The position numbers and the translations under genes are program-made. The notes under the pieces were generated by a model that searched no databases, was not told where the DNA came from, and saw only the letters and a list, made by a program, of their open reading frames with translations. Shown piece after piece: positions 3,533 through 23,624 of a DNA stretch of 64,000 bases (position 1 is the first letter of the stretch; each line of letters starts with the position of its first letter). This DNA is from Ectothiorhodospiraceae bacterium (lineage in GTDB: Bacteria > Pseudomonadota > Gammaproteobacteria > Nitrococcales > Aquisalimonadaceae), in contig PXAT01000060.1 of the NCBI GenBank assembly GCA_003565775.1, forward strand, positions 14,222 to 78,221. The letters run 5' to 3'.

Positions 3533-5470
3533 ATGAAACCTCGCATCGAAGACCCCGCGGAATCTGCAACCGGGTCGGAAGCCCCCCGCCTGGCGCGCGC
3601 ATGGGAGCGTTGTCGGCTTGCCGGACTGGATCCAGCCGACACCCCGCCACCTGCGGTTGCCGACACCGGAGAAAGGCTTCGCCGACAACGCTGCATGCAC
3701 GGCGTGCTCGAGGCGACCCGGATTGAACTGGTGAGCCTTGTCCGCCATATCGGCGGTAGCGGGCATGTCCTGCTGGTCACGGATGCCGGAGGCTTCATTC
3801 TCGATTACTACGGCGATCGGCAATTTAACGATACCGCCCGGCAGCTCGGACTCGTCCTCGGTGCCTGCTGGAGTGAACAGGCCATGGGTGTGCAGGCGAT
3901 TGGGCTTTGCCTGGCTGATCGACTGCCGGTTCAGATCACCGGTGCCGAGCACTATCGTCGCGATCTCGCGCCGTTAACCGGCTCGTCGACACCATTGTTC
4001 AGTCCGGCGGGAGAGCTGCTCGGGGGACTCCACGCGGTGGCGTCGCACGAGCAGGCCAATCCCCATACCCTGGCGCTGCTCCGGCTGACCTCGGATGCCA
4101 TCGAAAAACGCGTCCTTCTGGAGCGACCGGGAGCGGAGCAGGTGGTACTGCAGTTCCACAGTCGTCCCGAACTCGTTGGCGCCCCGGGCGAGGGTCTGCT
4201 GCTGGTAGACGCCGACGACCGTATCGCCGGAGCCACCGGGACCGCGTGTTTTCATCTGGGTCTGGCCGCTATCGCCGACCTGACAGGGCATACGGTCAGC
4301 GAAACCTTCAACATCCGTTGCGACGAGTTACCGCATGGAGGCGCGCGGGCTGGCCCCAGGGCGATTTACGAGACGCGGGCCGGGCGACGCTTTTATGCCA
4401 GCCTTCGGCCAGGCGGCGCGGGCGCCGCGGCAACGCAGCCCACGATGCGCAAACGCCGTCCGTCCCGTGGCCGAGCAACGCCGTCGAGGCTCGATGATCT
4501 GGACCTGGGCGACCCGACCATGACAGAGAACATCCGCCGCGCGCGGCGGGTGCTGGATCATGAGCTGCCGATTCTCATTCAGGGCGAGACGGGCACCGGC
4601 AAGGAAGTCTTTTCCAAGGCCATGCATGAGGCCAGCAGCCGTGCCGGACGCAATTACGTCGCCGTCAACTGTGCGTCGATTCCCGAAACCCTGATCGAGA
4701 GCGAGCTGTTCGGTTACAAGGGCGGGGCCTTTACCGGCGCGAGCCGCGAAGGCAACAGGGGAAAGATCGTCCAGGCGGACGGCGGCACGCTGTTCCTGGA
4801 CGAAATCGGTGACATGCCCCTCCCCCTGCAGGGCCGTCTGCTGCGCGTCCTCGAGGAGCGCGAAGTTCTGCCGCTGGGCAGCAACAACCCGATCAAGGTG
4901 GACATCCGGCTGGTCAGCGCCACGCATCGCGATCTGCAACAGCTGATCGCGGAAGGCACTTTTCGTGAAGACCTCTATTACCGCCTTCAGGGGGTGACCA
5001 TCAGTCTCCCTCCGTTACGGCAGCGCAGCGATCGCCGGGCCCTGATCGTGCATCTGTTGCGTCTGTTGAATCAGGGCGAGGCGGTGACCGTCGAACCGAT
5101 GGCGCTGGACGCTCTGGACCGCTACCACTGGCCGGGCAATATCCGCCAGTTGTTCAACGTGCTGCGCATCGCACTGGCACTCCGCGAGGGGATCAGCATC
5201 CGCCATGCCGACCTGCCGACCGAAATCCGCGAGGGCACGGAACCGACGCCAGGGGCGGCAACCGGCGAAGCGCGGGACCGCGAGGAGGCGACGCCGGTCC
5301 CGCGCGAGCAAGGGAATCCGTTGCAGGACGCCGAGCGGGAAGTGCTGCTGGCCGCACTGGAGCGGCACTACTGGAACATCACGGACATCGCACGCAGCTT
5401 CAATGTCAGTCGCAATACGATCTATCGCAAGATGAAGGCACATAACATACGACCGCCCCGGGCGCGGTGA
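3533..5470 (+). CDS. Sigma54-dependent transcriptional activator, AcoR-like (N-terminal sensory domain, AAA+, C-terminal HTH)
   Basis: 645 aa. Walker A GETGTGKEVFSKAMH, ESELFGYKGGAFTGA (GAFTGA loop), and C-terminal Fis-type HTH SRNTIYRKMKAH. Confidence 0.85.
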   Translation: MKPRIEDPAESATGSEAPRLARAWERCRLAGLDPADTPPPAVADTGERLRRQRCMHGVLEATRIELVSLVRHIGGSGHVLLVTDAGGFILDYYGDRQFNDTARQLGLVLGACWSEQAMGVQAIGLCLADRLPVQITGAEHYRRDLAPLTGSSTPLFSPAGELLGGLHAVASHEQANPHTLALLRLTSDAIEKRVLLERPGAEQVVLQFHSRPELVGAPGEGLLLVDADDRIAGATGTACFHLGLAAIADLTGHTVSETFNIRCDELPHGGARAGPRAIYETRAGRRFYASLRPGGAGAAATQPTMRKRRPSRGRATPSRLDDLDLGDPTMTENIRRARRVLDHELPILIQGETGTGKEVFSKAMHEASSRAGRNYVAVNCASIPETLIESELFGYKGGAFTGASREGNRGKIVQADGGTLFLDEIGDMPLPLQGRLLRVLEEREVLPLGSNNPIKVDIRLVSATHRDLQQLIAEGTFREDLYYRLQGVTISLPPLRQRSDRRALIVHLLRLLNQGEAVTVEPMALDALDRYHWPGNIRQLFNVLRIALALREGISIRHADLPTEIREGTEPTPGAATGEARDREEATPVPREQGNPLQDAEREVLLAALERHYWNITDIARSFNVSRNTIYRKMKAHNIRPPRAR

Positions 5471-6422: not shown

Positions 6423-7553
6423 TTACCCCACGGTCCGCAGACGCATGGGATCGTAGAAAGGCGTCTGCACGACGCGGGCGGCATAGCGCTTGCCACCGCT
6501 TTCCACCTCTACCTCGGTGCCGATGGCAGAAGCACCATGGTCGAGATGAACCAGTGCCAGCGACTGCATCAGATGCTGGCTGTAAACCGGGCTGTTGACG
6601 CGGCCCACATCCTTGCCGTCATGGAAGATCCGGTCACCGATTTCCACCGCGTCGTCGTGCTGCACGACGATCCCGGCCTGGGTGAACCGTTCCTTGCCCC
6701 GGGCTGCCAGGCAGGCGGCCTTGCCGCGCCATTCGCCCTTCTCCGAGACCGACCAGCCATAGTTGATTTCCCACGGCGTGGTGTCCCCCTGGGGCATGTC
6801 GAAGGGAAAGAACAGCAGCGCCGCCTCGATCCTGGAGATATCCAGTGCCGTCCAGGAACAGGGCATGACACCGTGCTCGGCGCCCTTCTCCAGAATGGTG
6901 TCCCAGAGATCCACTGCATCCGCCGCGGCACAGTAGATTTCAAAGCCGCGCTCACCGGAATAACCGCCACGACTGATGATGACCTGGCGGCCGAACAGCG
7001 TGCAGGGCGTGTGGCGGAAGTATTTGAGCGCAGCCAGATCGGCGTCACAGTGCGGATCCAGGATGGCCAGCGAGCGCGGCCCCTGCAGGGACAGGATGTG
7101 GGTGTCCTCGTCCACTTCGATCTGCACGTCCCGGCCCCTGGCGCTGTTCGCCAGGTTCTGCGGAGTCTCGCCTTCACCGTGAGTCAGACGGAACTCATCA
7201 GCCGCGTCGCGGATAACCATCACGTCGTCCACGATGTGACCCTGCTCGTTCAATTCGCTGCCGATGGCCGCCTGGCCGGGCTTGAGCGCCGTGCAGTCGC
7301 AGCTCACCAGATGGTCCACCACTGCTTCGGCGTCGGCACCGCGGATATTCGCCACGTGCAGGCCGGAGACATCAAACAGACCCGCCCGCATGCGCATCAC
7401 CGCCACTTCATCGTAGGGATCCGTGTCGTAGTTCCACGGAATCAGCATGTCGTTCCAGGTGTCCCCATCCAGGCTTGAGCCCAGTTGCCGGTGGCGCTCG
7501 TTGAGTACCGATTCCCGCATTGCAGTGCTGTCTTTCCGTTGTGCGTTGGTCAT
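6423..7553 (-). CDS. GcvT-family aminomethyltransferase (tetrahydrofolate-dependent demethylase-like)
   Basis: Track ORF is 6423-7619. Start moved to ATG 7553 (MTNAQRK...) with a GGAGAA RBS. Glycine-cleavage T-protein-like sequence (..AGLFDVSGLHVANIRGADAEAVVDHLV.., ..ISRGGYSGERGFEIY..). Confidence 0.8.
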   Translation of the reverse strand: MTNAQRKDSTAMRESVLNERHRQLGSSLDGDTWNDMLIPWNYDTDPYDEVAVMRMRAGLFDVSGLHVANIRGADAEAVVDHLVSCDCTALKPGQAAIGSELNEQGHIVDDVMVIRDAADEFRLTHGEGETPQNLANSARGRDVQIEVDEDTHILSLQGPRSLAILDPHCDADLAALKYFRHTPCTLFGRQVIISRGGYSGERGFEIYCAAADAVDLWDTILEKGAEHGVMPCSWTALDISRIEAALLFFPFDMPQGDTTPWEINYGWSVSEKGEWRGKAACLAARGKERFTQAGIVVQHDDAVEIGDRIFHDGKDVGRVNSPVYSQHLMQSLALVHLDHGASAIGTEVEVESGGKRYAARVVQTPFYDPMRLRTVG

Positions 7554-7627
7554 GTTCGTCTTCTCCTGCCACTGAACCGTTGTTGACGCAGTTATCCATG
7601 ATGCTATTGCTGCGTTCATCGGGGGAA

Positions 7628-7643
7628 TGCAATGTGAATGCCA
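7628..7643 (-). promoter_or_regulatory. Candidate sigma54 (-24/-12) promoter of the GcvT-family gene
   Basis: Minus strand reads TGGCATTCACATTGCA, a full match to TGGCAY-N5-TTGCA, about 75 nt upstream of ATG 7553. Confidence 0.6.
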
Positions 7644-12895: not shown

Positions 12896-13861
12896 TTAAT
12901 CGAAGTGCTGGCGAAGTTCCTGACCGACCTCGAACATGTCGCCCACCACGCCATAGCGCGCCACATTGAAAATCCCTGCATTGGCATCCGAGTTCACGGC
13001 AATGATGTTTTCAATGTGCTTCATCCCGGCCAGGTGCTGCACCGACCCGGAAATCCCGAGTGCCAGGTAGAGCCGGCAACTGCTTGCGGTCTTGCCGGAA
13101 TAACCGACCTGACGCGCTTTCGGCAGCCAGCCGGCATCAGCAATCGGACGGGAACAACCCAATACCGCGCCCACCTGATCCGCGAGTTCGGCGAACTCCT
13201 CCACGTTCTCCTCTTCGCCGACGCCACGGCCGATGGACAGGATGAACTCCGCAGCCGGGATATCCACTCCACCCTCGCTGGGCGGGTCGATGAACTCCAG
13301 ATGACGACTGCGGACCGCAGTGTCAGGCACGGCCAGGGTGGTGACCGAGCAATCGGTCGCACCTTCCGCTGCGGTGAAGGCGCTCGGCCGCAGGGCCAGG
13401 ACCACACGCTCGCGGCCCGGGAACTCGATTTTCGCGTGCGCCCGCTCGCCATAGGCACCGCGCACGGCGACCACCTCGCCGTCATCGACCTGGATAGCGA
13501 AGACATCGGTGGCGAAACCGGCTGCAGCACGCACGGCCAGTGCTGCACCGTAGCCCCAGCCGTCGACACTGTGCGACATCAGCACAAGAGCCGGATCCCG
13601 CTCCTCGACCGCCTGCAGGGCCGCCGCCACATGCAGATCCGGCTGAAACTCATTTGCCTCCACCGGCAGCAGCAGCACCTCGTCAACACCATCGAGCTTG
13701 ACGCTGTCCGCCAATGCCTTCGGATCGCCGGCGATGATCGCCACCGACAGCGAGCCGCCGATGTCGGCCTTGACCGCGCGCGCCGCACCGATCAGTTCCT
13801 GCGTCACCGGGCTCATGACCCCGCGCCGCTGCTCTGCAATAACCAGAATTCCCTGTGCCAT
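12896..13861 (-). CDS. etfA: Electron transfer flavoprotein alpha subunit
   Basis: 321 aa. ..ILVIAEQRRG.. at the N-terminus, and the C-terminal FAD segment ..GCSRPIADAGWLPKARQVGYSGKTASSCRLYLALGISGSVQHLAGM. Confidence 0.9.
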   Translation of the reverse strand: MAQGILVIAEQRRGVMSPVTQELIGAARAVKADIGGSLSVAIIAGDPKALADSVKLDGVDEVLLLPVEANEFQPDLHVAAALQAVEERDPALVLMSHSVDGWGYGAALAVRAAAGFATDVFAIQVDDGEVVAVRGAYGERAHAKIEFPGRERVVLALRPSAFTAAEGATDCSVTTLAVPDTAVRSRHLEFIDPPSEGGVDIPAAEFILSIGRGVGEEENVEEFAELADQVGAVLGCSRPIADAGWLPKARQVGYSGKTASSCRLYLALGISGSVQHLAGMKHIENIIAVNSDANAGIFNVARYGVVGDMFEVGQELRQHFD

Positions 13862-13863
13862 GA

Positions 13864-14655
13864 TCAGCCCCCCATGACTTCTTTGACGATTGCCGCGATG
13901 CGCGCGGCCTGTTCCGCCGGCGTTCCCTCGATCATCTCGGCCTGCCCCTTGTCGGGCAGATACATTTCCCGGACCCGGGACCCCCTCGCCTGCTCACCGA
14001 TATCCTGATCCTCGAGGCCGAGCTCATCGGGTGACAGTTCCTCGATGGGGATGGATCGGGCCTGCTTGATTCCTCGCAGTGACGCGTAACGCGGCGTGTT
14101 GATGCCGAGCTGGATGGTCAGCACAGCCGGACAGTCCACCTCCAGTCGCTCGCGCAGACCGCCCTCCAGTTCACGTTCCACAATCGCCGTGGCAGCACCG
14201 GGAGCGTAGTCGAGGGCAACCACCACCGCTGCGTGAGGCCAGCCCATGAAGGCGGCCATGGCAACACCGGTAGCGGAAAAGCCCAGGTCCGAGGACTGCG
14301 TTCCGGCCAGCACCAGATCCGGCGCCTCGCGTTGTGCCACTGCGGCAAGAACCCGGGCAATCACCAGCGGGTCGGCATCGGCGATCACATCGTCCCAGAT
14401 CCGGATTGCACGATCCGCCCCCTTGGCAAGACAGGTACGCAGGGCGTCCTCGGTATCGTCGTCGCCCACGGTGACGGCCACCACCTCGATGCCGTCGTTC
14501 GCCTCCTTGAGCTGAAGGGCCGCCTCCAGCGAGTAGTCGTCCCACTCGTTCAGCTGCAGATCGACAAAATCGGGATCCACATCCCGTCCGTCGTCGCGCA
14601 ACTCGAAGTCATCCTCGACCAGGGCCGCCTGTTTGACGGGAACTAGAATCTTCAT
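13864..14655 (-). CDS. etfB: Electron transfer flavoprotein beta subunit
   Basis: Track ORF is 13864-14697 (TTG). ATG 14655 (MKILVPVKQ) has an AAGGAGAGGAAAG RBS. Its stop lies 2 nt before the etfA ATG. Confidence 0.9.
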   Translation of the reverse strand: MKILVPVKQAALVEDDFELRDDGRDVDPDFVDLQLNEWDDYSLEAALQLKEANDGIEVVAVTVGDDDTEDALRTCLAKGADRAIRIWDDVIADADPLVIARVLAAVAQREAPDLVLAGTQSSDLGFSATGVAMAAFMGWPHAAVVVALDYAPGAATAIVERELEGGLRERLEVDCPAVLTIQLGINTPRYASLRGIKQARSIPIEELSPDELGLEDQDIGEQARGSRVREMYLPDKGQAEMIEGTPAEQAARIAAIVKEVMGG

Positions 14656-14697: not shown

Positions 14698-16104
14698 TCA
14701 ACGGGAAGCCGCCAGCTCTGCCAGTCGTTTCCAGGCAAGGAACCGGATCCGTGGCTCGGGATCCCCGGTCAATGCCTCCAGGGCTGTGGCCGACAACGCG
14801 TCACAGCGCGCCACCACGAACCGGTTCAACGGGTAGGGGTCCTCGACCAGAGAGTCGAGCACGGCGACCGGAACTCGGGGGTTTAGCGCCACGGCCCGCC
14901 GTACGTCCCGGTCTCTGTGTCTCGCCAGAGCGAGCAGCGTTGGTCCGGGAGTCGAAGGGTTGGCGGCTACGGCACTCACCACGTCGACGGCCGGATCATC
15001 TGCCAGGCGCTGTAAGACGGACGGATACAGGTCATCCCGGCCGGCCGCGCCGGCCCTGACCCAGGCTTCCGGATCCGCGGCGAGACGGGCCAGCAGAAAC
15101 GCCGAGCTGGCGGGGTTCCGGCTGACCGCGCGCCGCACATCCGCTGCCGGGTCATAGGCGAGTTGTTCAAGCATCTGCCGCGGACAACGCGGGTTCCGGG
15201 CCACCCACCGCCGCAGCCAGTTGCCCGGCTGGCGCGCGAGACTGTCGAGCCAGGACGGCGGGATGTCCCGGCGCCGCGCCAACGCCCGCCGGACGCGTCC
15301 GGACGGATCCAGCAACAAGGGATAAAGCCGACTCACCGGCGTCAACGGGGACTCGGCGACAGCGGCGCGGACCGTCGCGTCGGGATCATGAAGTAACCGC
15401 TGGCAAGCGCCTTCCGGCGCTGCGGGATGACTCGCCACGCGACGACGCCAGAGGGGGAACGGTGCATGGGCTGCAGCCATCAGTAGCTGGCCCGGGCAGG
15501 CCTCCGCGCGCAACAGCTCGGCACGCACATGCCTGTCGCCATGAAGCCAGAGACGGCCCAGCAGGTCCGGAGTCAGCCCGCGACGCGCTGCCAGGATGCG
15601 CAGCACGGCGGGCCCTCCGGACTCGGCCAGGCCGGCCAGCAGTTCCGCCGGCGCCTGCGGGTGGCCGGCCACCGCCCGTGCCGTGGCTTCCTGGCCATCG
15701 CTCAGCAGATCGGCCAGCATGTTCGCGGGCATCCGCGGATTCGCGGCCAGCAACGGGTTCAGCCCGGGTTCCGGCCTCTCCCGCAGTAATCGCACGAGGA
15801 CCCCTGGCGGTGTGGCCGGGTTCCTGGCCAGGCGCCGTCGAATCGCGGCATCCGCCCGGCCGCCGAGTTCTTCCAGCAGTCCTTCCGGCGAGAACGGCAG
15901 GCCAGCGAATATCAGTCGAGTGGCGCGATCAGGCAAGGCGATCCCGAGCAGCTTGCCGGTGGTCGCAGTGCAGTTGCCGGCGATCAGGCCCGCAGCCGCG
16001 TAGGCGTCGCGCCGCTCGACAACACGCCGGACCAGTGCCGCCATGTCAGGGCTCACCTCGGGCATGGTTGCCACCTCCCGATCTGTCGCGCAGCCCCGGA
16101 CCAT
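14698..16104 (-). CDS. LRV/HEAT-like tandem-repeat protein of unknown function
   Basis: 468 aa made of about 14 repeats of 24-26 aa, consensus D..VR.AVA.NP..P...L..LA.D. The ATG is 1 nt after the Fe-S gene stop (TGA-G-ATG). Confidence 0.65.
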   Translation of the reverse strand: MVRGCATDREVATMPEVSPDMAALVRRVVERRDAYAAAGLIAGNCTATTGKLLGIALPDRATRLIFAGLPFSPEGLLEELGGRADAAIRRRLARNPATPPGVLVRLLRERPEPGLNPLLAANPRMPANMLADLLSDGQEATARAVAGHPQAPAELLAGLAESGGPAVLRILAARRGLTPDLLGRLWLHGDRHVRAELLRAEACPGQLLMAAAHAPFPLWRRRVASHPAAPEGACQRLLHDPDATVRAAVAESPLTPVSRLYPLLLDPSGRVRRALARRRDIPPSWLDSLARQPGNWLRRWVARNPRCPRQMLEQLAYDPAADVRRAVSRNPASSAFLLARLAADPEAWVRAGAAGRDDLYPSVLQRLADDPAVDVVSAVAANPSTPGPTLLALARHRDRDVRRAVALNPRVPVAVLDSLVEDPYPLNRFVVARCDALSATALEALTGDPEPRIRFLAWKRLAELAASR

Positions 16105-16105
16105 C

Positions 16106-18232
16106 TCAGGCCGCCTCCGTGGCCTGACCGTCGAGGGCGAGGGCTTCCGCCACCAGTTCGTTGAGTTCGCGAACCACGAACTGACCTTCGTAGCCGGACG
16201 TCTTCAAGGCATCCTCGAACATGGTCAGGTCCTTGGGGCAGGCCACGACGAAGACCTCTAGCCCCTCGATCCGGGCAGCCTCGTGCATGCGATTCTCGGA
16301 CGGCTTTTCCTTGCCCGGCGGATCGGCCATCCAGATACGCCCGCCGCCGGCGCCGCAGCAGAACGAGTTCTCGCCGGATCGATCCATCTCCACCAGATCC
16401 AGCCCCAGGGCCTGCATCACGTAACGCGGTGCATCGAAGCCCCGGTTGAAGCGGCCGAGATGGCAGGGGTCGTGGTAGGTGACCCGGTAATTGAGCGTCC
16501 GCTGGAAGTGCAGCCGCCCCTCCTCGATGAGCTGTTTCAGCAACGAGGTGTAGTGGTAGATCAGATACTGGCCGCCGAACTGCGGATACTCGTTGCGAAT
16601 GGTGTTCAGCGAATGCGGATCGGTGGTCACCAGACGCTCGAACTCCACATCCTCCAGTGTCGCGACATTGCCCTCCGCCAGCATCTCGTAGAGGCCCTCC
16701 TCGCCGACCCGGCGAACGTCATTGCCGGCGTTCTGCTCGGCGTCATAGAGGATGCCGAAGTCCACCTCGGCGTGATGCAGGATGCGGGCGAAATCCCGGG
16801 TCACGGACTGGTTGCGCGGATCGAACGAGGCGTAGTCGCCGACGAACCAGAGAAAGTCCACCGGCTCCTTGCGCGCGTCCTTCACCGGGAAGTCCAGCTC
16901 GTCGGCCCACTTGCCACGCTTGCGCTTGGCCTCGCCGAAGGAATTGCCGCGCTTCTGGATCTTCTGCAACGTGCCCTGCAGCATCGGATCCATTTCGCCC
17001 TGCTCCACCAGCCAGCGGCGCATCTGCACGATGATCGGCACATGCTCGATGGCCACCGGACAGATCTCGACGCAGGCCATGCAGGTGCGGCATGCCCACA
17101 GGGTCTCGGCCCGGATCTGGTGGACGCCATCGCCGTGAACGATCAGCTCGTCGGCATGCTTCGGCTTGCCTTCGAGATTGTCATGGGCGAATTCGCGCAG
17201 GGTCAGGACCAGGTCGCGGGGCGACAGCGGAAGCCCGCTGGCATTGGCCGGACAGGCCTCGTGGCAGCGGCCGCATTTGGTGCAGGCATCCAGGTGCAGC
17301 AGGTGCTTGCGGCTGAAGTCCGTGATCCGGCCATAGCCGGCATCCTCGCCCTCCTCGGGCAGTTTCGGCAGCCGCTGGGCGGCGAGCGGGTCGCGCAGCA
17401 TCAGCGAGCCGCCAGCCGTGAAGATATGCTTGACCTTGGTAAACGGGATGGCGGCGACAAAGGCCAGCGCCAGCACGCCGTGGAACCACCAGGTGGCGGT
17501 GCGCAGGACGCCGGCGCCTTCGCTGCTCAGCCCGAGCCCCGACAGGGCATAGGCGATACTGGTGCCCACCGGGGTCCACCAGCGGTAATCCCAGACCAGG
17601 GGGTCCTCGATCAGCCAGAGCTTGCGGCTGCCATTGAGCAGGAAACCGGTCACACCGATGATGATCAGTGCCCAGAGAAAGGCCCAGTCCTCGATCCGGT
17701 AGGCACTGCGATCCGCGTCCGGCTCTCCCGGCTCCCGATCGGGACGGCGGTAGTCCAGCTTGGGCGGTTTGATCCAGCCGCGCCGGACCATCATGTAGAC
17801 CAGTCCGATGATCAGGGCGAGACCGGCCAGATCCAGGGTCAACTGGAACAGCAGATAGAACTCGCCATGCCAGAAGGACAGCCCCAGCGGTCCGAGGATG
17901 TCGTAGTCGATGAAGATCAGCGACGTGCCTATGAACAGCAGCACGAAGCCGAAGAAGATTGCCGCATGGGCGCGCCCGGCCGCGGCATCCCGGCGGCGCA
18001 GCGTGCGGTGAGTGAGCATGGTCAGGCACAGGTCCCGGAAGCGTCGCAGCAGATCGGCCCAGGAGCCGTCGGCAACGCCCTGTCGATACTTGCGTATCTG
18101 CAGATAACAGCCCCAGGCGAAAATGCCCAGAGCGATGAATCCGAGAATGTAGAACAGCACGATGCCGACCGCGGAGAAATCCTGGAACAACTCCCGGGTC
18201 ACATCTGCTGAATCATGGGTCGGATTAATCAT
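16106..18232 (-). CDS. Membrane-anchored Fe-S oxidoreductase (DgcB/HdrD/GlpC-like: TM domain + 2x[4Fe-4S] + CCG domains)
   Basis: 708 aa. N-terminal hydrophobic helices, CTKCGRCHEACP and CRTCMACVEICP, then Cys-rich ..YHDPCHLGR.. and ..NSFCCGAGGG... GAGG RBS. Confidence 0.8.
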   Translation of the reverse strand: MINPTHDSADVTRELFQDFSAVGIVLFYILGFIALGIFAWGCYLQIRKYRQGVADGSWADLLRRFRDLCLTMLTHRTLRRRDAAAGRAHAAIFFGFVLLFIGTSLIFIDYDILGPLGLSFWHGEFYLLFQLTLDLAGLALIIGLVYMMVRRGWIKPPKLDYRRPDREPGEPDADRSAYRIEDWAFLWALIIIGVTGFLLNGSRKLWLIEDPLVWDYRWWTPVGTSIAYALSGLGLSSEGAGVLRTATWWFHGVLALAFVAAIPFTKVKHIFTAGGSLMLRDPLAAQRLPKLPEEGEDAGYGRITDFSRKHLLHLDACTKCGRCHEACPANASGLPLSPRDLVLTLREFAHDNLEGKPKHADELIVHGDGVHQIRAETLWACRTCMACVEICPVAIEHVPIIVQMRRWLVEQGEMDPMLQGTLQKIQKRGNSFGEAKRKRGKWADELDFPVKDARKEPVDFLWFVGDYASFDPRNQSVTRDFARILHHAEVDFGILYDAEQNAGNDVRRVGEEGLYEMLAEGNVATLEDVEFERLVTTDPHSLNTIRNEYPQFGGQYLIYHYTSLLKQLIEEGRLHFQRTLNYRVTYHDPCHLGRFNRGFDAPRYVMQALGLDLVEMDRSGENSFCCGAGGGRIWMADPPGKEKPSENRMHEAARIEGLEVFVVACPKDLTMFEDALKTSGYEGQFVVRELNELVAEALALDGQATEAA

Positions 18233-18330: not shown

Positions 18331-21310
<2,980 letters not shown>

Positions 21311-21399
21311 CGATTCCTGCACGATCCACCTCCAGGTGTTTTGCCGAAAGCATCTGCGCATGCAGAGGCCGGGTTTCGTGTATTGCTGCAGGGTGGGGT

Positions 21400-21415
21400 A
21401 GCACTGCCTGTGCCA
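21400..21415 (-). promoter_or_regulatory. Candidate sigma54 (-24/-12) promoter of the six-gene dehydrogenase/ETF operon
   Basis: Minus strand reads TGGCACAGGCAGTGCT (TGGCAC-N5-GTGCT, GG-N10-GC), about 90 nt upstream of ATG 21310. Confidence 0.55.
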
Positions 21416-21492
21416 GATGCAGGAAAGCCCCGTCGCACAAGGGCTGCAGCCCCGGCGGGAGGGCAATGCCCACGCATGCCCCTCCTCCGCGA

Positions 21493-21537
21493 GTCGCAAA
21501 AGCGGGACTATCGATTGCGAATTCGCAGTTTTGCGAC
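21493..21537. promoter_or_regulatory. Nested palindrome, candidate enhancer (UAS) for the adjacent activator
   Basis: GTCGCAAAA (21493-21501) and TTTTGCGAC (21529-21537) flank a perfect 12-bp palindrome TGCGAATTCGCA (21516-21527). It lies about 80-135 bp upstream of the 21400-21415 promoter. Confidence 0.35.
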
Positions 21538-21616: not shown

Positions 21617-21683
21617 ACGAACTGCTTGACAGGTGCAGTGTGACTTCGTCAATGATCTGGGCAATCAATGCGGGCGTTCGCCA

Positions 21684-23624
21684 ATGGCAGTCTCGGGACA
21701 AAGCAAGAACGATGCATCGGCCGTGAAACCGACCTGTGAGCAGGACAGTGCGGCATGGCTTCGCTGCAGGGAGGAGTACGGACTGGCTCCGGAAATGCGG
21801 CCCGCGGACAGCAAACTCGCAACCGAGCAGCTCAAGCGCCTTCAGGGCCAATTCGGGGAAACGTTCGGTGTCGCTCGCGCGGAAATGAACAGCCTGGCCC
21901 GGCGCCTGGCGGGAACGAGATGCGGCGTTGCCATTGCCGATGCACGTGGCACCGTACTGCACTACCTCGGCGACCCGGAGTTCAATGCGATGACCTCCGG
22001 CGTCAGGATGAGCCCGGGGACCGACTGGAGCGAGAAGACCCAGGGCAACTCGGCCATTGGCACCTGCGCTGCGCTGCAGCGCCCGGTCTCGGTCATCGGC
22101 GACGGACATTTCCTGGCCTGCCATCGCTGGCTGGCGGGAACCGCAATTCCCGTATTCAGTGGCGATGGTCAACTGGCGCTGGTGCTGGCACTGCTCACCA
22201 CCGCGAGGGAAAGCGACGGTTGTCAGCGCTACACCAGGGCACTGCTTGAAATGACCGCGCAGCTGGTTGATCGACGCGCCTTTCTCAAGCGTTTCGCTTC
22301 ACATACGATCCTGCGTTTTCATTCGCGGCCGGACTCGGTGGACAATATTGACGGTGGTCTGATTGCCCTGGGCCGCGAGCAACAGGTTCTGGCGATGAGC
22401 GAGACGGCGAGAAGCCTGCTCGGGGGCATTGCGCCGACCGCCCGACAGCTCGGTGAGCTGAGTGAGTTCCTGAATCTGAGCCTGGACGAGTTCCCCGAAG
22501 GTGACGCGGAACCGGCAAGCGTATTCGATTCCCGCCACGGGCGACGCTTCTATGTACTGATCGACTCGCCGGCAGTGAGATCGGGGGCCGGCACCTCAGG
22601 ATGCGCCAACGGGCATGACCCGGAAGCCCTGGAAGGGGAAGACTGCCTCACATCGCTGGAACTTGGCGACCCGGCGGTTGCCGATCATATCCGCCGCGCA
22701 AAGCGGCTGGCCGACGAGAACATCCCTATTCTGGTTCACGGCGAGACGGGCACCGGGAAGGAACTGTTTGCGAAATCCCTGCATCAGGCCTGTAATCGCC
22801 GGGATGGCCCCTTCGTCGCGGTCAACTGCGCCTCGATACCGGAAAGCCTCATCGAGAGTGAGTTGTTCGGCTACAAGGGAGGGGCTTTCACCGGTGCCAA
22901 TCGACGTGGCAACGTCGGACGCATCGTCCAGGCCGATGGTGGCACGCTGTTTCTCGACGAGATCGGCGACATGCCACTTGCTCTGCAGGCCCGCCTGCTA
23001 CGTGCCCTGCAGGAACGTGAAGTCCTGCCGCTGGGCGGTGACAAGCCAGTTCCCGTGGACATCTGCCTGATCAGCGCAACCCACCGTGATTTAAGGGAAC
23101 TGATCGCCGAGGGGTGCTTCCGGGAAGACCTGTATTACCGCCTGCAGGGCTTCACACTGACCCTGCCGCCGCTTCGCGAACGTCACGACCGCATCGCGCT
23201 GATCGAGAATCTGCTGGCCTGCAAGAGTGCGCCATGTCAGCCACCGAAAATCGCGCCGGACGCGATGCGGCTGCTGGACCGATATCCCTGGCCCGGGAAC
23301 ATCCGACAACTGGTCACATGCATCCGGACGATGGTGGCGTTGCATGAAGGAGGTTGCATCACTGTTGACGACCTCCCCGCCGAGATCCGTTGCTGCGACA
23401 GGATGCAGGCGATACCCGGGACGGAGATCGACGGCAGTGGTCCGGAGGACCGATCGTCAGTGCTGCACAAGGCGGAGCGTGATGCTCTGTTAACAACGCT
23501 CCGGCAATATCACTGGCAGGTCGCGGAGGCTGCCCAGTCTCTCGACATCAGTCGCAGCACCCTGTACCGGAAAATGAAACGCTACGATATCCACCCGCCC
23601 CGGAAGACCTCCCCGTTCGCTTAA
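21684..23624 (+). CDS. Sigma54-dependent transcriptional activator, AcoR-like (paralog of 3533-5470)
   Basis: Track ORF starts at GTG 21633. ATG 21684 (MAVSGQ..) fits alignment with the paralog (AAWLRCREEYGLAP vs ARAWERCRLAGLDP) and leaves a leader after the 21601 promoter. GETGTGKELFAKSLH, ESELFGYKGGAFTGA, SRSTLYRKMKRY. Confidence 0.85.
   Translation: MAVSGQSKNDASAVKPTCEQDSAAWLRCREEYGLAPEMRPADSKLATEQLKRLQGQFGETFGVARAEMNSLARRLAGTRCGVAIADARGTVLHYLGDPEFNAMTSGVRMSPGTDWSEKTQGNSAIGTCAALQRPVSVIGDGHFLACHRWLAGTAIPVFSGDGQLALVLALLTTARESDGCQRYTRALLEMTAQLVDRRAFLKRFASHTILRFHSRPDSVDNIDGGLIALGREQQVLAMSETARSLLGGIAPTARQLGELSEFLNLSLDEFPEGDAEPASVFDSRHGRRFYVLIDSPAVRSGAGTSGCANGHDPEALEGEDCLTSLELGDPAVADHIRRAKRLADENIPILVHGETGTGKELFAKSLHQACNRRDGPFVAVNCASIPESLIESELFGYKGGAFTGANRRGNVGRIVQADGGTLFLDEIGDMPLALQARLLRALQEREVLPLGGDKPVPVDICLISATHRDLRELIAEGCFREDLYYRLQGFTLTLPPLRERHDRIALIENLLACKSAPCQPPKIAPDAMRLLDRYPWPGNIRQLVTCIRTMVALHEGGCITVDDLPAEIRCCDRMQAIPGTEIDGSGPEDRSSVLHKAERDALLTTLRQYHWQVAEAAQSLDISRSTLYRKMKRYDIHPPRKTSPFA

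What the first reader, a model, noticed from the sequence alone, without database searches (positions are those of the whole stretch)
14698..16104. LRV/HEAT-like solenoid protein embedded between a membrane Fe-S oxidoreductase gene and etfB
Seen: the 468-aa product is almost entirely tandem 24-26-aa repeats with consensus D..VR.AVA.NP..P...L..LA.D (about 14 by my count). Examples are ADVRRAVSRNPASSAFLLARLAADPE and RDVRRAVALNPRVPVAVLDSLVEDPY. It has no TM helix, signal peptide or Cys cluster. Its ATG is 1 nt from the Fe-S gene stop, and its stop lies about 40 nt upstream of the etfB ATG, abutting the etfB leader. Established: such repeats resemble the leucine-rich-repeat-variant class, first seen in an Azotobacter Fe-S protein of unknown function. 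Inference: it may be a docking or assembly scaffold linking soluble ETF or the dehydrogenase to the membrane Fe-S protein. I know of no described ETF pathway that includes such a component.
Basis: partly seen in the sequence, partly recalled or inferred. Interest (0 to 1): 0.65.

Follow-up and report, generated by a model that had tools for sequence, protein, structure and literature searches.

The report
Conserved solenoid protein in trimethylamine-dehydrogenase/ETF operon
A real but uncharacterised repeat (LRV solenoid) protein is encoded between the membrane ETF-oxidising iron-sulfur enzyme and etfB in the trimethylamine dehydrogenase operon of many methylotrophs. It is therefore probably an unrecognised accessory part of a classic electron-transfer pathway, though its role is untested.

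Summary
The gene lies on the minus strand (14698-16104). It encodes a 468-aa cytoplasmic protein made of 17 (not about 14) 26-residue LRV repeats. Support: Pfam LRV E=2e-29; AlphaFold pLDDT 93.6; lag-26 periodicity z=12.9.

Its neighbours are orthologues of the classic Methylophilus W3A1 trimethylamine dehydrogenase (TMADH) and its ETF. The third neighbour is a DgcB-like member of the EtfD family of membrane ETF:quinone oxidoreductases.

The co-occurrence test passes strongly:
- In 64 of 78 informative genomic loci anchored on EtfD, an LRV gene sits between etfD and etfB.
- All 70 metagenomic loci found through an LRV-specific peptide sit in that slot wherever the contig reaches.
- Generic LRV proteins from other phyla do not.

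The family is under purifying selection (dN/dS 0.08-0.32). It evolves 2-5 times faster than its neighbours and tracks EtfD/ETF (r about 0.9) rather than TMADH (0.56). Two clades lack it, with no compensating change in the partner proteins.

Best reading: a non-catalytic, dispensable accessory of the ETF-to-EtfD step, either a docking adaptor or an assembly factor. No physical interaction was tested. No paper was found that describes such a component.

The parts
14698..16104 (-). LRV solenoid gene: 468 aa, 17 repeats of about 26 aa at residues 21-466, disordered N-terminal 15 residues, possible alternative start at Met14 (base 16065).
16106..18232 (-). EtfD/DgcB-family membrane Fe-S oxidoreductase, 708 aa. 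It has an N-terminal NarI-like membrane domain, two 4Fe-4S motifs and two CCG domains. [quoted passage not shown]
   Evidence: Pfam CCG and Fer4 hits plus a weak Nitrate_red_gam hit. PDB 9OJN M. smegmatis EtfD E=3e-67, with residue-level alignment. EtfD description in PMC13083937.
18331..20523 (-). Trimethylamine dehydrogenase, 730 aa.
   Evidence: 1295 bits, full length, to W3A1 TMADH 1DJN/2TMD. Pfam Oxidored_FMN and OYE-like second domain.
13864..14655 (-). etfB, 263 aa counted from the ATG at 14655. The mechanical ORF extends to 14697 from a TTG.
   Evidence: 330 bits to W3A1 ETF beta, 1O94_C.
12896..13861 (-). etfA, 321 aa.
   Evidence: 321 bits to W3A1 ETF alpha, 1O94_D. Pfam ETF and ETF_alpha.
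21401..21415 (-). Sigma-54-like -24/-12 element (TGGCACAGGCAGTGC) upstream of the cassette. Tentative.
   Evidence: one mismatch, and not enriched over chance in the window as a whole. It faces a divergent GAF/sigma-54 activator gene at 21633-23624.

Best explanation
The gene encodes a soluble, cytoplasmic, non-catalytic alpha-solenoid: 17 LRV repeats, with the best-conserved surface in repeats 10-16. It is made from the same transcript as TMADH, an EtfD-type membrane ETF:quinone oxidoreductase, and the TMADH-specific ETF.

The most likely role is a protein-binding accessory of the ETF-to-EtfD step. It would hold ETF, or the cytoplasmic CCG/Fe-S domain of EtfD, so that reduced ETF is delivered efficiently to the membrane enzyme during growth on trimethylamine.

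Shown: the gene is real, it is selected, and its position is invariant.

From established knowledge: TMADH reduces ETF without any third protein. ETF binds EtfD only weakly. In mycobacteria that contact is predicted to use a disordered EtfD tail that DgcB-type enzymes lack.

Inferred: the LRV protein supplies that tethering function in trans, and it is helpful rather than essential.
For: Operon position. It is tightly packed between etfD and etfB, with gaps or overlaps of -35 to +55 nt upstream and -4 to +48 nt downstream. No convincing internal terminator was found.

Context conservation. The LRV gene is present in 64 of 78 informative EtfD-anchored genomic loci across alpha-, beta- and gammaproteobacteria, including Methylophilus methylotrophus. 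All 70 LRV-anchored metagenomic loci are in the cassette wherever the contig reaches. Divergent and shortened forms occupy the same slot. Generic LRV proteins elsewhere do not.

Module affinity. The gene stays with EtfD-ETF when TMADH is moved to the far side (L015, L088, L102). Mirror-tree r is 0.90-0.91 with EtfD, EtfB and EtfA, against 0.56 with TMADH.

Selection. dN/dS is 0.08-0.32.

Fold. The confident model resembles PP2A PR65-type HEAT scaffolds and 1LRV. There is no cofactor or catalytic motif.

Partner biochemistry. This EtfD homologue has no long C-terminal region, only a tail of about 15 aa after the conserved ELxEL motif. The mycobacterial EtfD tail is predicted to bind ETF, and ETF-EtfD binding is described as weak (PMC13083937).

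Expression. Metatranscriptome contigs of a Methylophaga relative cover the LRV gene at depths similar to etfBA.
Against: No physical interaction was tested or predicted here.

Fourteen cassettes in two adjacent clades lack the gene. Their EtfD, EtfB, EtfA and TMADH show no lineage-wide indel and at most three conservative fixed differences. The pathway therefore works without it.

The protein evolves 2-5 times faster than its neighbours: mean distance 1.05 against 0.20-0.45, and 34-39% identity where EtfD is 64% identical. That is unusual for a tight stoichiometric interface.

Net charge varies from -17 to +29 and does not complement the acidic EtfD tail (rho +0.43).

The RNA evidence comes from assembled contigs, which may include DNA.
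Confidence: 0.4

Rival explanations
1. Assembly or maturation chaperone. The solenoid transiently binds nascent EtfD (heme b plus several Fe-S clusters) or apo-ETF (FAD/AMP) and helps cofactor insertion or membrane assembly. It would not be part of the working complex.
For: It is dispensable in two clades with no change in the partner proteins. It evolves fast and is under relaxed constraint compared with its neighbours. Its start lies 1 nt from, or overlaps, the etfD stop, which suits co-translational action. One generic LRV protein sits beside MoxR-type AAA and DUF2201 genes, which are chaperone-like systems.
Against: There is no homology to any known Fe-S, heme or flavin maturation factor. 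Contig depth in one metatranscriptome is similar to etfBA rather than lower, a weak point. Nothing distinguishes this rival from the adaptor model with present data.
Confidence: 0.25
2. TMADH-specific maturation factor, for example aiding formation of the covalent 6-S-cysteinyl-FMN. The analogy is with HEAT-like CpcE/F lyases, which attach bilins to cysteines.
For: All LRV-bearing cassettes contain a TMADH-type gene wherever the contig reaches. From my own recollection, not checked here: recombinant W3A1 TMADH made in E. coli is reported to be only partly flavinylated (Scrutton and co-workers, 1990s).
Against: The LRV gene never adjoins the TMADH gene, and it stays with etfD/etfB when TMADH moves. 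Its distances correlate poorly with TMADH (r=0.56; partial r -0.06). LRV-less cassettes have equally conserved TMADH with no fixed differences. TMADH flavinylation is regarded as self-catalytic (established knowledge, recalled).
Confidence: 0.08
3. Sensor or regulator. The repeats would bind a small molecule or a regulatory protein and modulate operon expression or enzyme activity.
For: LRV repeats occur fused to NACHT NTPase, HTH and hydrolase domains in other proteins, where repeats usually act as sensor or binding modules (hits P0091, P0098, P0111). PAS proteins and sigma-54 activators flank the cassette.
Against: It has no DNA-binding or signalling output domain. Dedicated regulators are already present. 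Its position is inside the structural-gene block rather than beside the regulators.
Confidence: 0.07

Closest known systems
Azotobacter vinelandii LRV protein (PDB 1LRV), founder of Pfam LRV
   Same: Same repeat family by HMM and by sequence (E=6e-6). Same local fold (Foldseek TM 0.65 normalised to 1LRV, 26% identity over 242 columns). Function is likewise unknown.
   Different: 1LRV is 244 aa; from memory it has about 8 repeats and an N-terminal 4Fe-4S domain. The protein here has 17 repeats of 26 aa, no Cys cluster and no Fe-S domain hit. It also has a fixed genomic partner set.
PP2A scaffold subunit A/PR65 (HEAT repeats; e.g. 1B3U, 2NPP)
   Same: Best Foldseek matches (E about 3e-8). It is an elongated two-helix-repeat solenoid that works purely as a scaffold holding two other subunits.
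   Different: Global TM is only 0.23-0.35 and identity about 15%. HEAT repeats are about 39 aa against 26 aa here. PR65 is eukaryotic and no homology is implied.
Disordered C-terminal repeat region of mycobacterial EtfD (M. smegmatis residues 778-1042)
   Same: Possible functional analogue. AlphaFold3 predicts that this region mediates the otherwise weak ETF-EtfD contact (PMC13083937). The EtfD homologue here lacks such a region and has a separate repeat protein encoded next to it.
   Different: The mycobacterial region is disordered, lies in cis and is not LRV-like. The protein here is a folded solenoid acting in trans. The analogy is inference only.
TMADH-ETF system of Methylophilus methylotrophus W3A1 (PDB 1O94-1O97) and Pseudomonas DgcAB/ETF
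   Same: TMADH, EtfB and EtfA here are full-length orthologues of the W3A1 proteins. The Fe-S protein is DgcB-like, lacking the D1-cluster cysteines. The M. methylotrophus genome carries the same five-gene cassette, including a 34%-identical LRV gene.
   Different: The papers retrieved here on the TMADH-ETF and EtfD/DgcB systems mention no LRV component.

Membership tests
LRV repeat family (Pfam PF01816 / PF25591) | Sequence match to the family HMM above the curated threshold | tested here: met
   PF01816 scores 100.4 bits against a cut-off of 21.6, with 5 stretches. PF25591 scores 53.6 bits against 27.
LRV repeat family (Pfam PF01816 / PF25591) | Tandem short (about 24 aa) two-helix repeats forming a solenoid like 1LRV | tested here: met
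   17 helix pairs at pLDDT 93.6. The period is 26 aa, z=12.9. Foldseek TM is 0.65 to 1LRV. DSSP output does not separate alpha from 3-10 helices.
A. vinelandii LRV protein architecture (Fe-S domain plus LRV) | N-terminal 4Fe-4S cluster-binding domain | tested here: not met
   No Cys cluster: C5, C45, C203, C233, C306 and C443 are scattered. No Fe-S domain hit in Pfam. Only C203 is conserved in orthologues.
HEAT repeat proteins | Repeats of about 37-47 aa forming antiparallel helix pairs, with an HMM match | tested here: inconclusive
   Pfam HEAT scores 38.7 bits for the whole protein but has no individually significant stretch. Top fold matches are PR65. The repeat unit is 26 aa.
TMADH / EtfD / ETF cassette (as an accessory member) | Orthologues always encoded between etfD and etfB | tested here: met
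   64 of 64 LRV-bearing genomic loci and 70 of 70 metagenomic loci, as far as the contigs reach. Also L001-L005 and L156-L158. Generic LRV controls are not in this context.
TMADH / EtfD / ETF cassette (as an accessory member) | Present in every such cassette (obligate component) | tested here: not met
   14 of 78 informative cassettes have etfD followed directly by etfB.
TMADH / EtfD / ETF cassette (as an accessory member) | Physical association with ETF, EtfD or TMADH | not testable with these tools
   The structure tool folds single chains only and returns no interface measure. No proteomic or pull-down data were found.
EtfD/DgcB family (the upstream neighbour) | Membrane domain plus two 4Fe-4S motifs plus two CCG domains, homologous to solved EtfD, next to etfBA | tested here: met
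   CxxCxxCxxxCP occurs at C317-C327 and at C381-C391. H540, C590, C625, C626 and C665 align with D2-cluster ligands. D466, N501, D538 and S541 replace the D1 cysteines, as reported for DgcB and FadF. The membrane domain matched only weakly (Nitrate_red_gam E=0.005).

The most novel reading that the evidence does not exclude
The classic TMADH-ETF respiratory branch of methylotrophs has an unrecognised third soluble component. A fast-evolving LRV solenoid would dock ETF onto a DgcB-type EtfD quinone reductase. It would do in trans what the disordered tail of mycobacterial EtfD is predicted to do in cis. This would be the first assigned function for any LRV-repeat protein, and it would help define the long-unclear physiological route of electrons out of W3A1-type ETF.
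Probability: 0.3. Interest if true: 0.7.

Novelty: new variant of a known kind. Interest (0 to 1): 0.55.

Why it matters
TMADH and its ETF from Methylophilus W3A1 are textbook models for inter-protein electron transfer. The step after ETF, and any helper proteins, have not been worked out.

This analysis gives three things:
- A concrete candidate acceptor, an EtfD/DgcB-type enzyme.
- A second, wholly uncharacterised and context-locked protein, both present in the model organism's own genome.
- The first strong functional lead, by guilt by association, for an LRV repeat subfamily.

How ETF finds EtfD is stated to be an open question in the 2026 EtfD structure paper. That enzyme class is being pursued as a tuberculosis drug target. 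Natural cassettes with and without the gene offer a ready-made comparison.

Tried and rejected
1. Acidic EtfD tail binding a basic LRV groove. Tails are more acidic in LRV+ cassettes (median charge -6 against -2). However, this contrasts only two LRV- clades. Across 107 loci LRV charge and tail charge correlate positively (rho +0.43), not in a complementary way. LRV pI ranges from 5.4 to 11.6. Rejected as evidence.

2. Partner features that co-vary with LRV presence. No group-specific indels were found. Fixed differences numbered 0-3 (EtfA I201M, S273A, M277L; EtfD S645A). Uninformative.

3. Natural fusions (Rosetta stone). The 750-771-aa hits P0019 and P0023 are generic long LRV proteins, not LRV-Etf fusions.

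4. Expression in the window's organism. The only RNA run from the same soda-lake sample gave no real coverage.

5. Literature. Seven full-text searches found no paper linking LRV repeats with ETF, TMADH or EtfD.

6. Catalytic or metal site. The near-invariant His at position 200 is Ala in the window and in Methylonatrum. The conserved Cys203 sits at the position where other repeats carry Cys or Thr before Pro, which looks like a structural repeat position (my reading of the alignment).

7. Co-folding. Not attempted, because the tool takes one chain and reports no interface metrics.

8. NCBIfam gave no family for the protein.

Full report
**Observation.** The ORF at 14698-16104 is real but lies on the minus strand.

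A BLOSUM62 autocorrelation of the sequence peaks at lag 26 (z=12.9). The multiples 52, 78 and 104 also peak (z 10-12.6), measured against 300 shuffles. An AlphaFold2 model built on 47 orthologues is very confident (mean pLDDT 93.6, pTM 0.85). It consists of 34 short helices, i.e. 17 helix pairs, from residue 21 to 466. Residues 1-15 are disordered. The protein therefore has 17 repeats of about 26 residues rather than about 14.

Pfam LRV (100.4 bits, cut-off 21.6) and LRV_2 (53.6 bits) match clearly. HEAT matches only as a summed score. The only solved relative by sequence is the Azotobacter LRV protein 1LRV. By fold, the best matches are PP2A PR65-type HEAT scaffolds, and 1LRV itself (TM 0.65 on the 1LRV length).

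There is no hydrophobic segment (maximum 19-residue Kyte-Doolittle value 1.32) and no Cys cluster. NCBIfam offers no family.

The ATG is 1 nt after the TGA of the upstream gene and is preceded by GGAGG. A second possible start, Met14, has its own GGGAGG. The stop is 42 nt before the etfB ATG, which has an AGGAGAGG Shine-Dalgarno.

**Neighbours.** The five genes on the minus strand are as follows.
- 18331-20523: a full-length orthologue of Methylophilus W3A1 trimethylamine dehydrogenase (1295 bits to 1DJN/2TMD).
- 16106-18232: a 708-aa membrane Fe-S protein.
- 14698-16104: the LRV gene.
- 13864-14655 and 12896-13861: etfB and etfA, orthologues of the W3A1 ETF that was crystallised in complex with TMADH (1O94 chains C and D).

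The Fe-S protein matches the cryo-EM structure of M. smegmatis EtfD (9OJN, E=3e-67). In the residue alignment it keeps both CxxCxxCxxxCP motifs and most ligands of the non-cubane cluster D2. It has D466, N501, D538 and S541 where EtfD has the four cysteines of the linear 3Fe-4S cluster D1. The EtfD paper reports that pattern for DgcB and FadF (PMC13083937). It is thus a DgcB-like member of the EtfD family and the presumptive ETF:quinone oxidoreductase of this pathway.

No convincing terminator lies inside the block. A sigma-54-like -24/-12 element lies upstream, facing a divergent GAF/sigma-54 activator gene.

**Is the association conserved?** The closest homologues have exactly the same five-gene order. 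They are Methylonatrum kenyense (65% identity), Methylophaga (34%) and Paraburkholderia sacchari (39%).

I then anchored on the Fe-S protein, not on LRV, and fetched 80 loci from one-genome-per-species collections. After annotating them with the window's five proteins, 78 were informative.
- 64 carry an LRV gene immediately after etfD. In 58 of these it is followed by etfB-etfA; in 6 it is cut by a contig end.
- 14 have etfD followed directly by etfB.

LRV-bearing cassettes occur in gamma- (Methylophaga, Methylonatrum, Methylohalomonas), beta- (Methylophilus including M. methylotrophus DSM 46235, Methylotenera, Methylobacillus, Novimethylophilus, Paraburkholderia, Caballeronia, Aromatoleum) and alphaproteobacteria (Hyphomicrobium).

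In the reverse direction, a scan of metagenome contigs with an LRV-specific peptide pattern returned 70 loci. In 55 both etfD and etf flank the gene. In the other 15 the one missing side is beyond the contig end. There was no exception.

More divergent hits (P0060, P0047) occupy the same slot. So does a shortened 370-aa form (P0053) that lacks roughly repeats 4-10. Generic LRV proteins from Thermogemmatispora and Streptomyces sit in unrelated contexts. The association is therefore specific to this orthologous subfamily. For that subfamily it is, as far as sampled, absolute.

**Evolutionary behaviour.** The orthologues align colinearly, repeat by repeat. Conservation is highest in repeats 10-16 and 2-3. 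It is lowest in repeats 4-9, the ones missing from the short form.

Conserved positions are mostly the structural repeat consensus (L4, L7, D10, V15, R16, R17, A20, N22). A few are family-specific residues (W296, W348, Y424-x-L-x-R428). Nothing resembles an active site.

dN/dS in twelve close pairs is 0.08-0.32 for LRV. It is roughly 0.01-0.10 for TMADH, EtfD and EtfB, and for EtfA where the ORF call was not over-extended. The gene is thus clearly selected but less constrained.

Mean pairwise distance is 1.05 for LRV, against 0.20 (TMADH), 0.33 (EtfD), 0.38 (EtfB) and 0.45 (EtfA). Window versus Methylonatrum is 95%, 91% and 65% identical for TMADH, EtfD and LRV.

LRV distances track EtfD, EtfB and EtfA (r=0.90-0.91) but not TMADH (0.56). 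In Hyphomicrobium-type loci TMADH sits after etfA while LRV stays between etfD and etfB. The gene belongs with the EtfD-ETF module, not with the dehydrogenase.

The 14 LRV-less cassettes form two adjacent clades nested among LRV-bearing ones in a midpoint-rooted EtfD tree. That suggests one or two losses, although the rooting is uncertain. Their TMADH, EtfD, EtfB and EtfA show no group-specific indels and at most three conservative fixed substitutions.

- TMADH reduces ETF directly, and the two crystallise as a binary complex (PDB 1O94-1O97). LRV is therefore not needed for that step.
- EtfD-type enzymes take electrons from ETF to quinone. The ETF-EtfD interaction is weak and its site is unknown.
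- An AlphaFold3 model suggests that mycobacterial EtfD uses its long disordered C-terminal repeat region to hold ETF, a region that DgcB-type enzymes lack (PMC13083937).

The EtfD homologue here ends about 15 residues after its last conserved helix. Two-helix solenoids without catalytic motifs are typically binding scaffolds, and the top fold match is the PP2A scaffold subunit.

Putting these together, I commit to this reading: a cytoplasmic, non-catalytic accessory of the ETF-to-EtfD step, most likely a docking adaptor (confidence 0.4). The closest rival is an assembly chaperone for EtfD or ETF (0.25). Dispensability, fast evolution and unchanged partners fit the chaperone model slightly better. 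Invariant placement between the two putative partners and apparently similar transcript coverage fit both models.

A TMADH flavinylation helper (0.08) and a sensor or regulator (0.07) are less likely, for the reasons given under rivals. No interaction was measured or predicted here. That is the main gap.

**Other evidence.** The window derives from a soda-lake population. DNA runs hold up to 91% of its k-mers, and independent contigs cover the LRV gene without indels. No usable RNA exists for it. For a Methylophaga relative, a metatranscriptome contains contigs inside the LRV gene at depths comparable to etfB/etfA. This is weak evidence of co-transcription.

**Comparison and novelty.** As a protein it is a member of the LRV repeat family: the HMM and fold tests are met. 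It lacks the Fe-S domain of the founding 1LRV protein.

As a system, a TMADH-EtfD-ETF cassette with a conserved solenoid gene is not described in any paper I could find. Databases call these proteins hypothetical. I rate it a new variant of a known kind: a known pathway type with an additional, uncharacterised, context-locked component.

Interest is moderate to good. The gene sits in the genome of the very organism in which TMADH-ETF electron transfer has been studied for decades. It also bears on the open question of how ETF engages EtfD. Against that, the function is still inferred only from context.

Noticed in passing
window 16106-18232 (-): [quoted passage not shown] It has D668 where EtfD has Cys712 of cluster D2. 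C665-P-K-D668 is invariant in the four aligned orthologues. An Asp ligand, or a different D2 geometry, is possible.
   Followed up: partly
window 20594-21499 (-), probable start near 21310: A roughly 240-aa ORF directly upstream of TMADH is 61% identical to the equivalent unannotated gene of Methylonatrum kenyense. It has no Pfam hit. Its motifs (PGDHVRL..., [11 protein letters not shown]) look to me like a ferredoxin-reductase-type flavin/NAD-binding fold, but this was not tested. It may be a further, lineage-specific member of the operon.
   Followed up: partly
window 21401-21415 (-) and 7629-7643 (-): Sigma-54-like -24/-12 elements (one mismatch each) lie upstream of the TMADH cassette and just upstream of the GcvT-like gene (6423-7619). 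Each is near a sigma-54 activator gene (21633-23624 and 3533-5470). Counts over the whole window are not above chance.
   Followed up: no
L009, L021, L034, L037, L038, L041, L043, L055, L069, L027, L107, L110: Many cassettes carry a second TMADH-like paralogue (1240-1270 bits). It is often divergent about 5 kb upstream or in tandem. It is possibly dimethylamine dehydrogenase sharing the same EtfD-LRV-ETF module.
   Followed up: no
L011 12087-13515; L070; L125; L144: In Methylophaga lonarensis MPL and three MAG or metagenome contigs the LRV gene is split into two overlapping ORFs. This is either a frameshift (incipient pseudogene) or an assembly error. It is relevant to dispensability.
   Followed up: no
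L157 8001-9113 (P0053): A 370-aa short form of the LRV protein sits in the same slot. It aligns to window residues 21-107 and 266-462, so it lacks about six central repeats. The N-terminal cap and C-terminal repeats appear to be the functional core.
   Followed up: partly
L001 55-1206 and 13232-13750 (also L002, L003): In Methylophaga a lumazine synthase gene (DMRL_synthase) directly follows etfA. A ribBA-type gene (DHBP synthase / GTP cyclohydrolase II) lies about 4 kb upstream of TMADH. This suggests flavin supply is co-located with this flavoprotein-rich cassette.
   Followed up: no
window 1-24000 vs L005: The window is syntenic with Methylonatrum kenyense AMT 1 around the cassette: sigma-54 activator, PAS protein, Gcw_chp porin-like gene, EamA transporter and HTH-cupin regulator. 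It comes from soda-lake metagenomes. TMADH and EtfD are 95% and 91% identical to M. kenyense, but LRV only 65%.
   Followed up: partly
L159 6001-10305: A generic 657-aa LRV protein of Thermogemmatispora carboxidivorans is followed by a MoxR-like AAA_5 ATPase gene and a DUF2201 gene. This is a different recurring-looking context for LRV repeats and may hint at chaperone-type roles.
   Followed up: no
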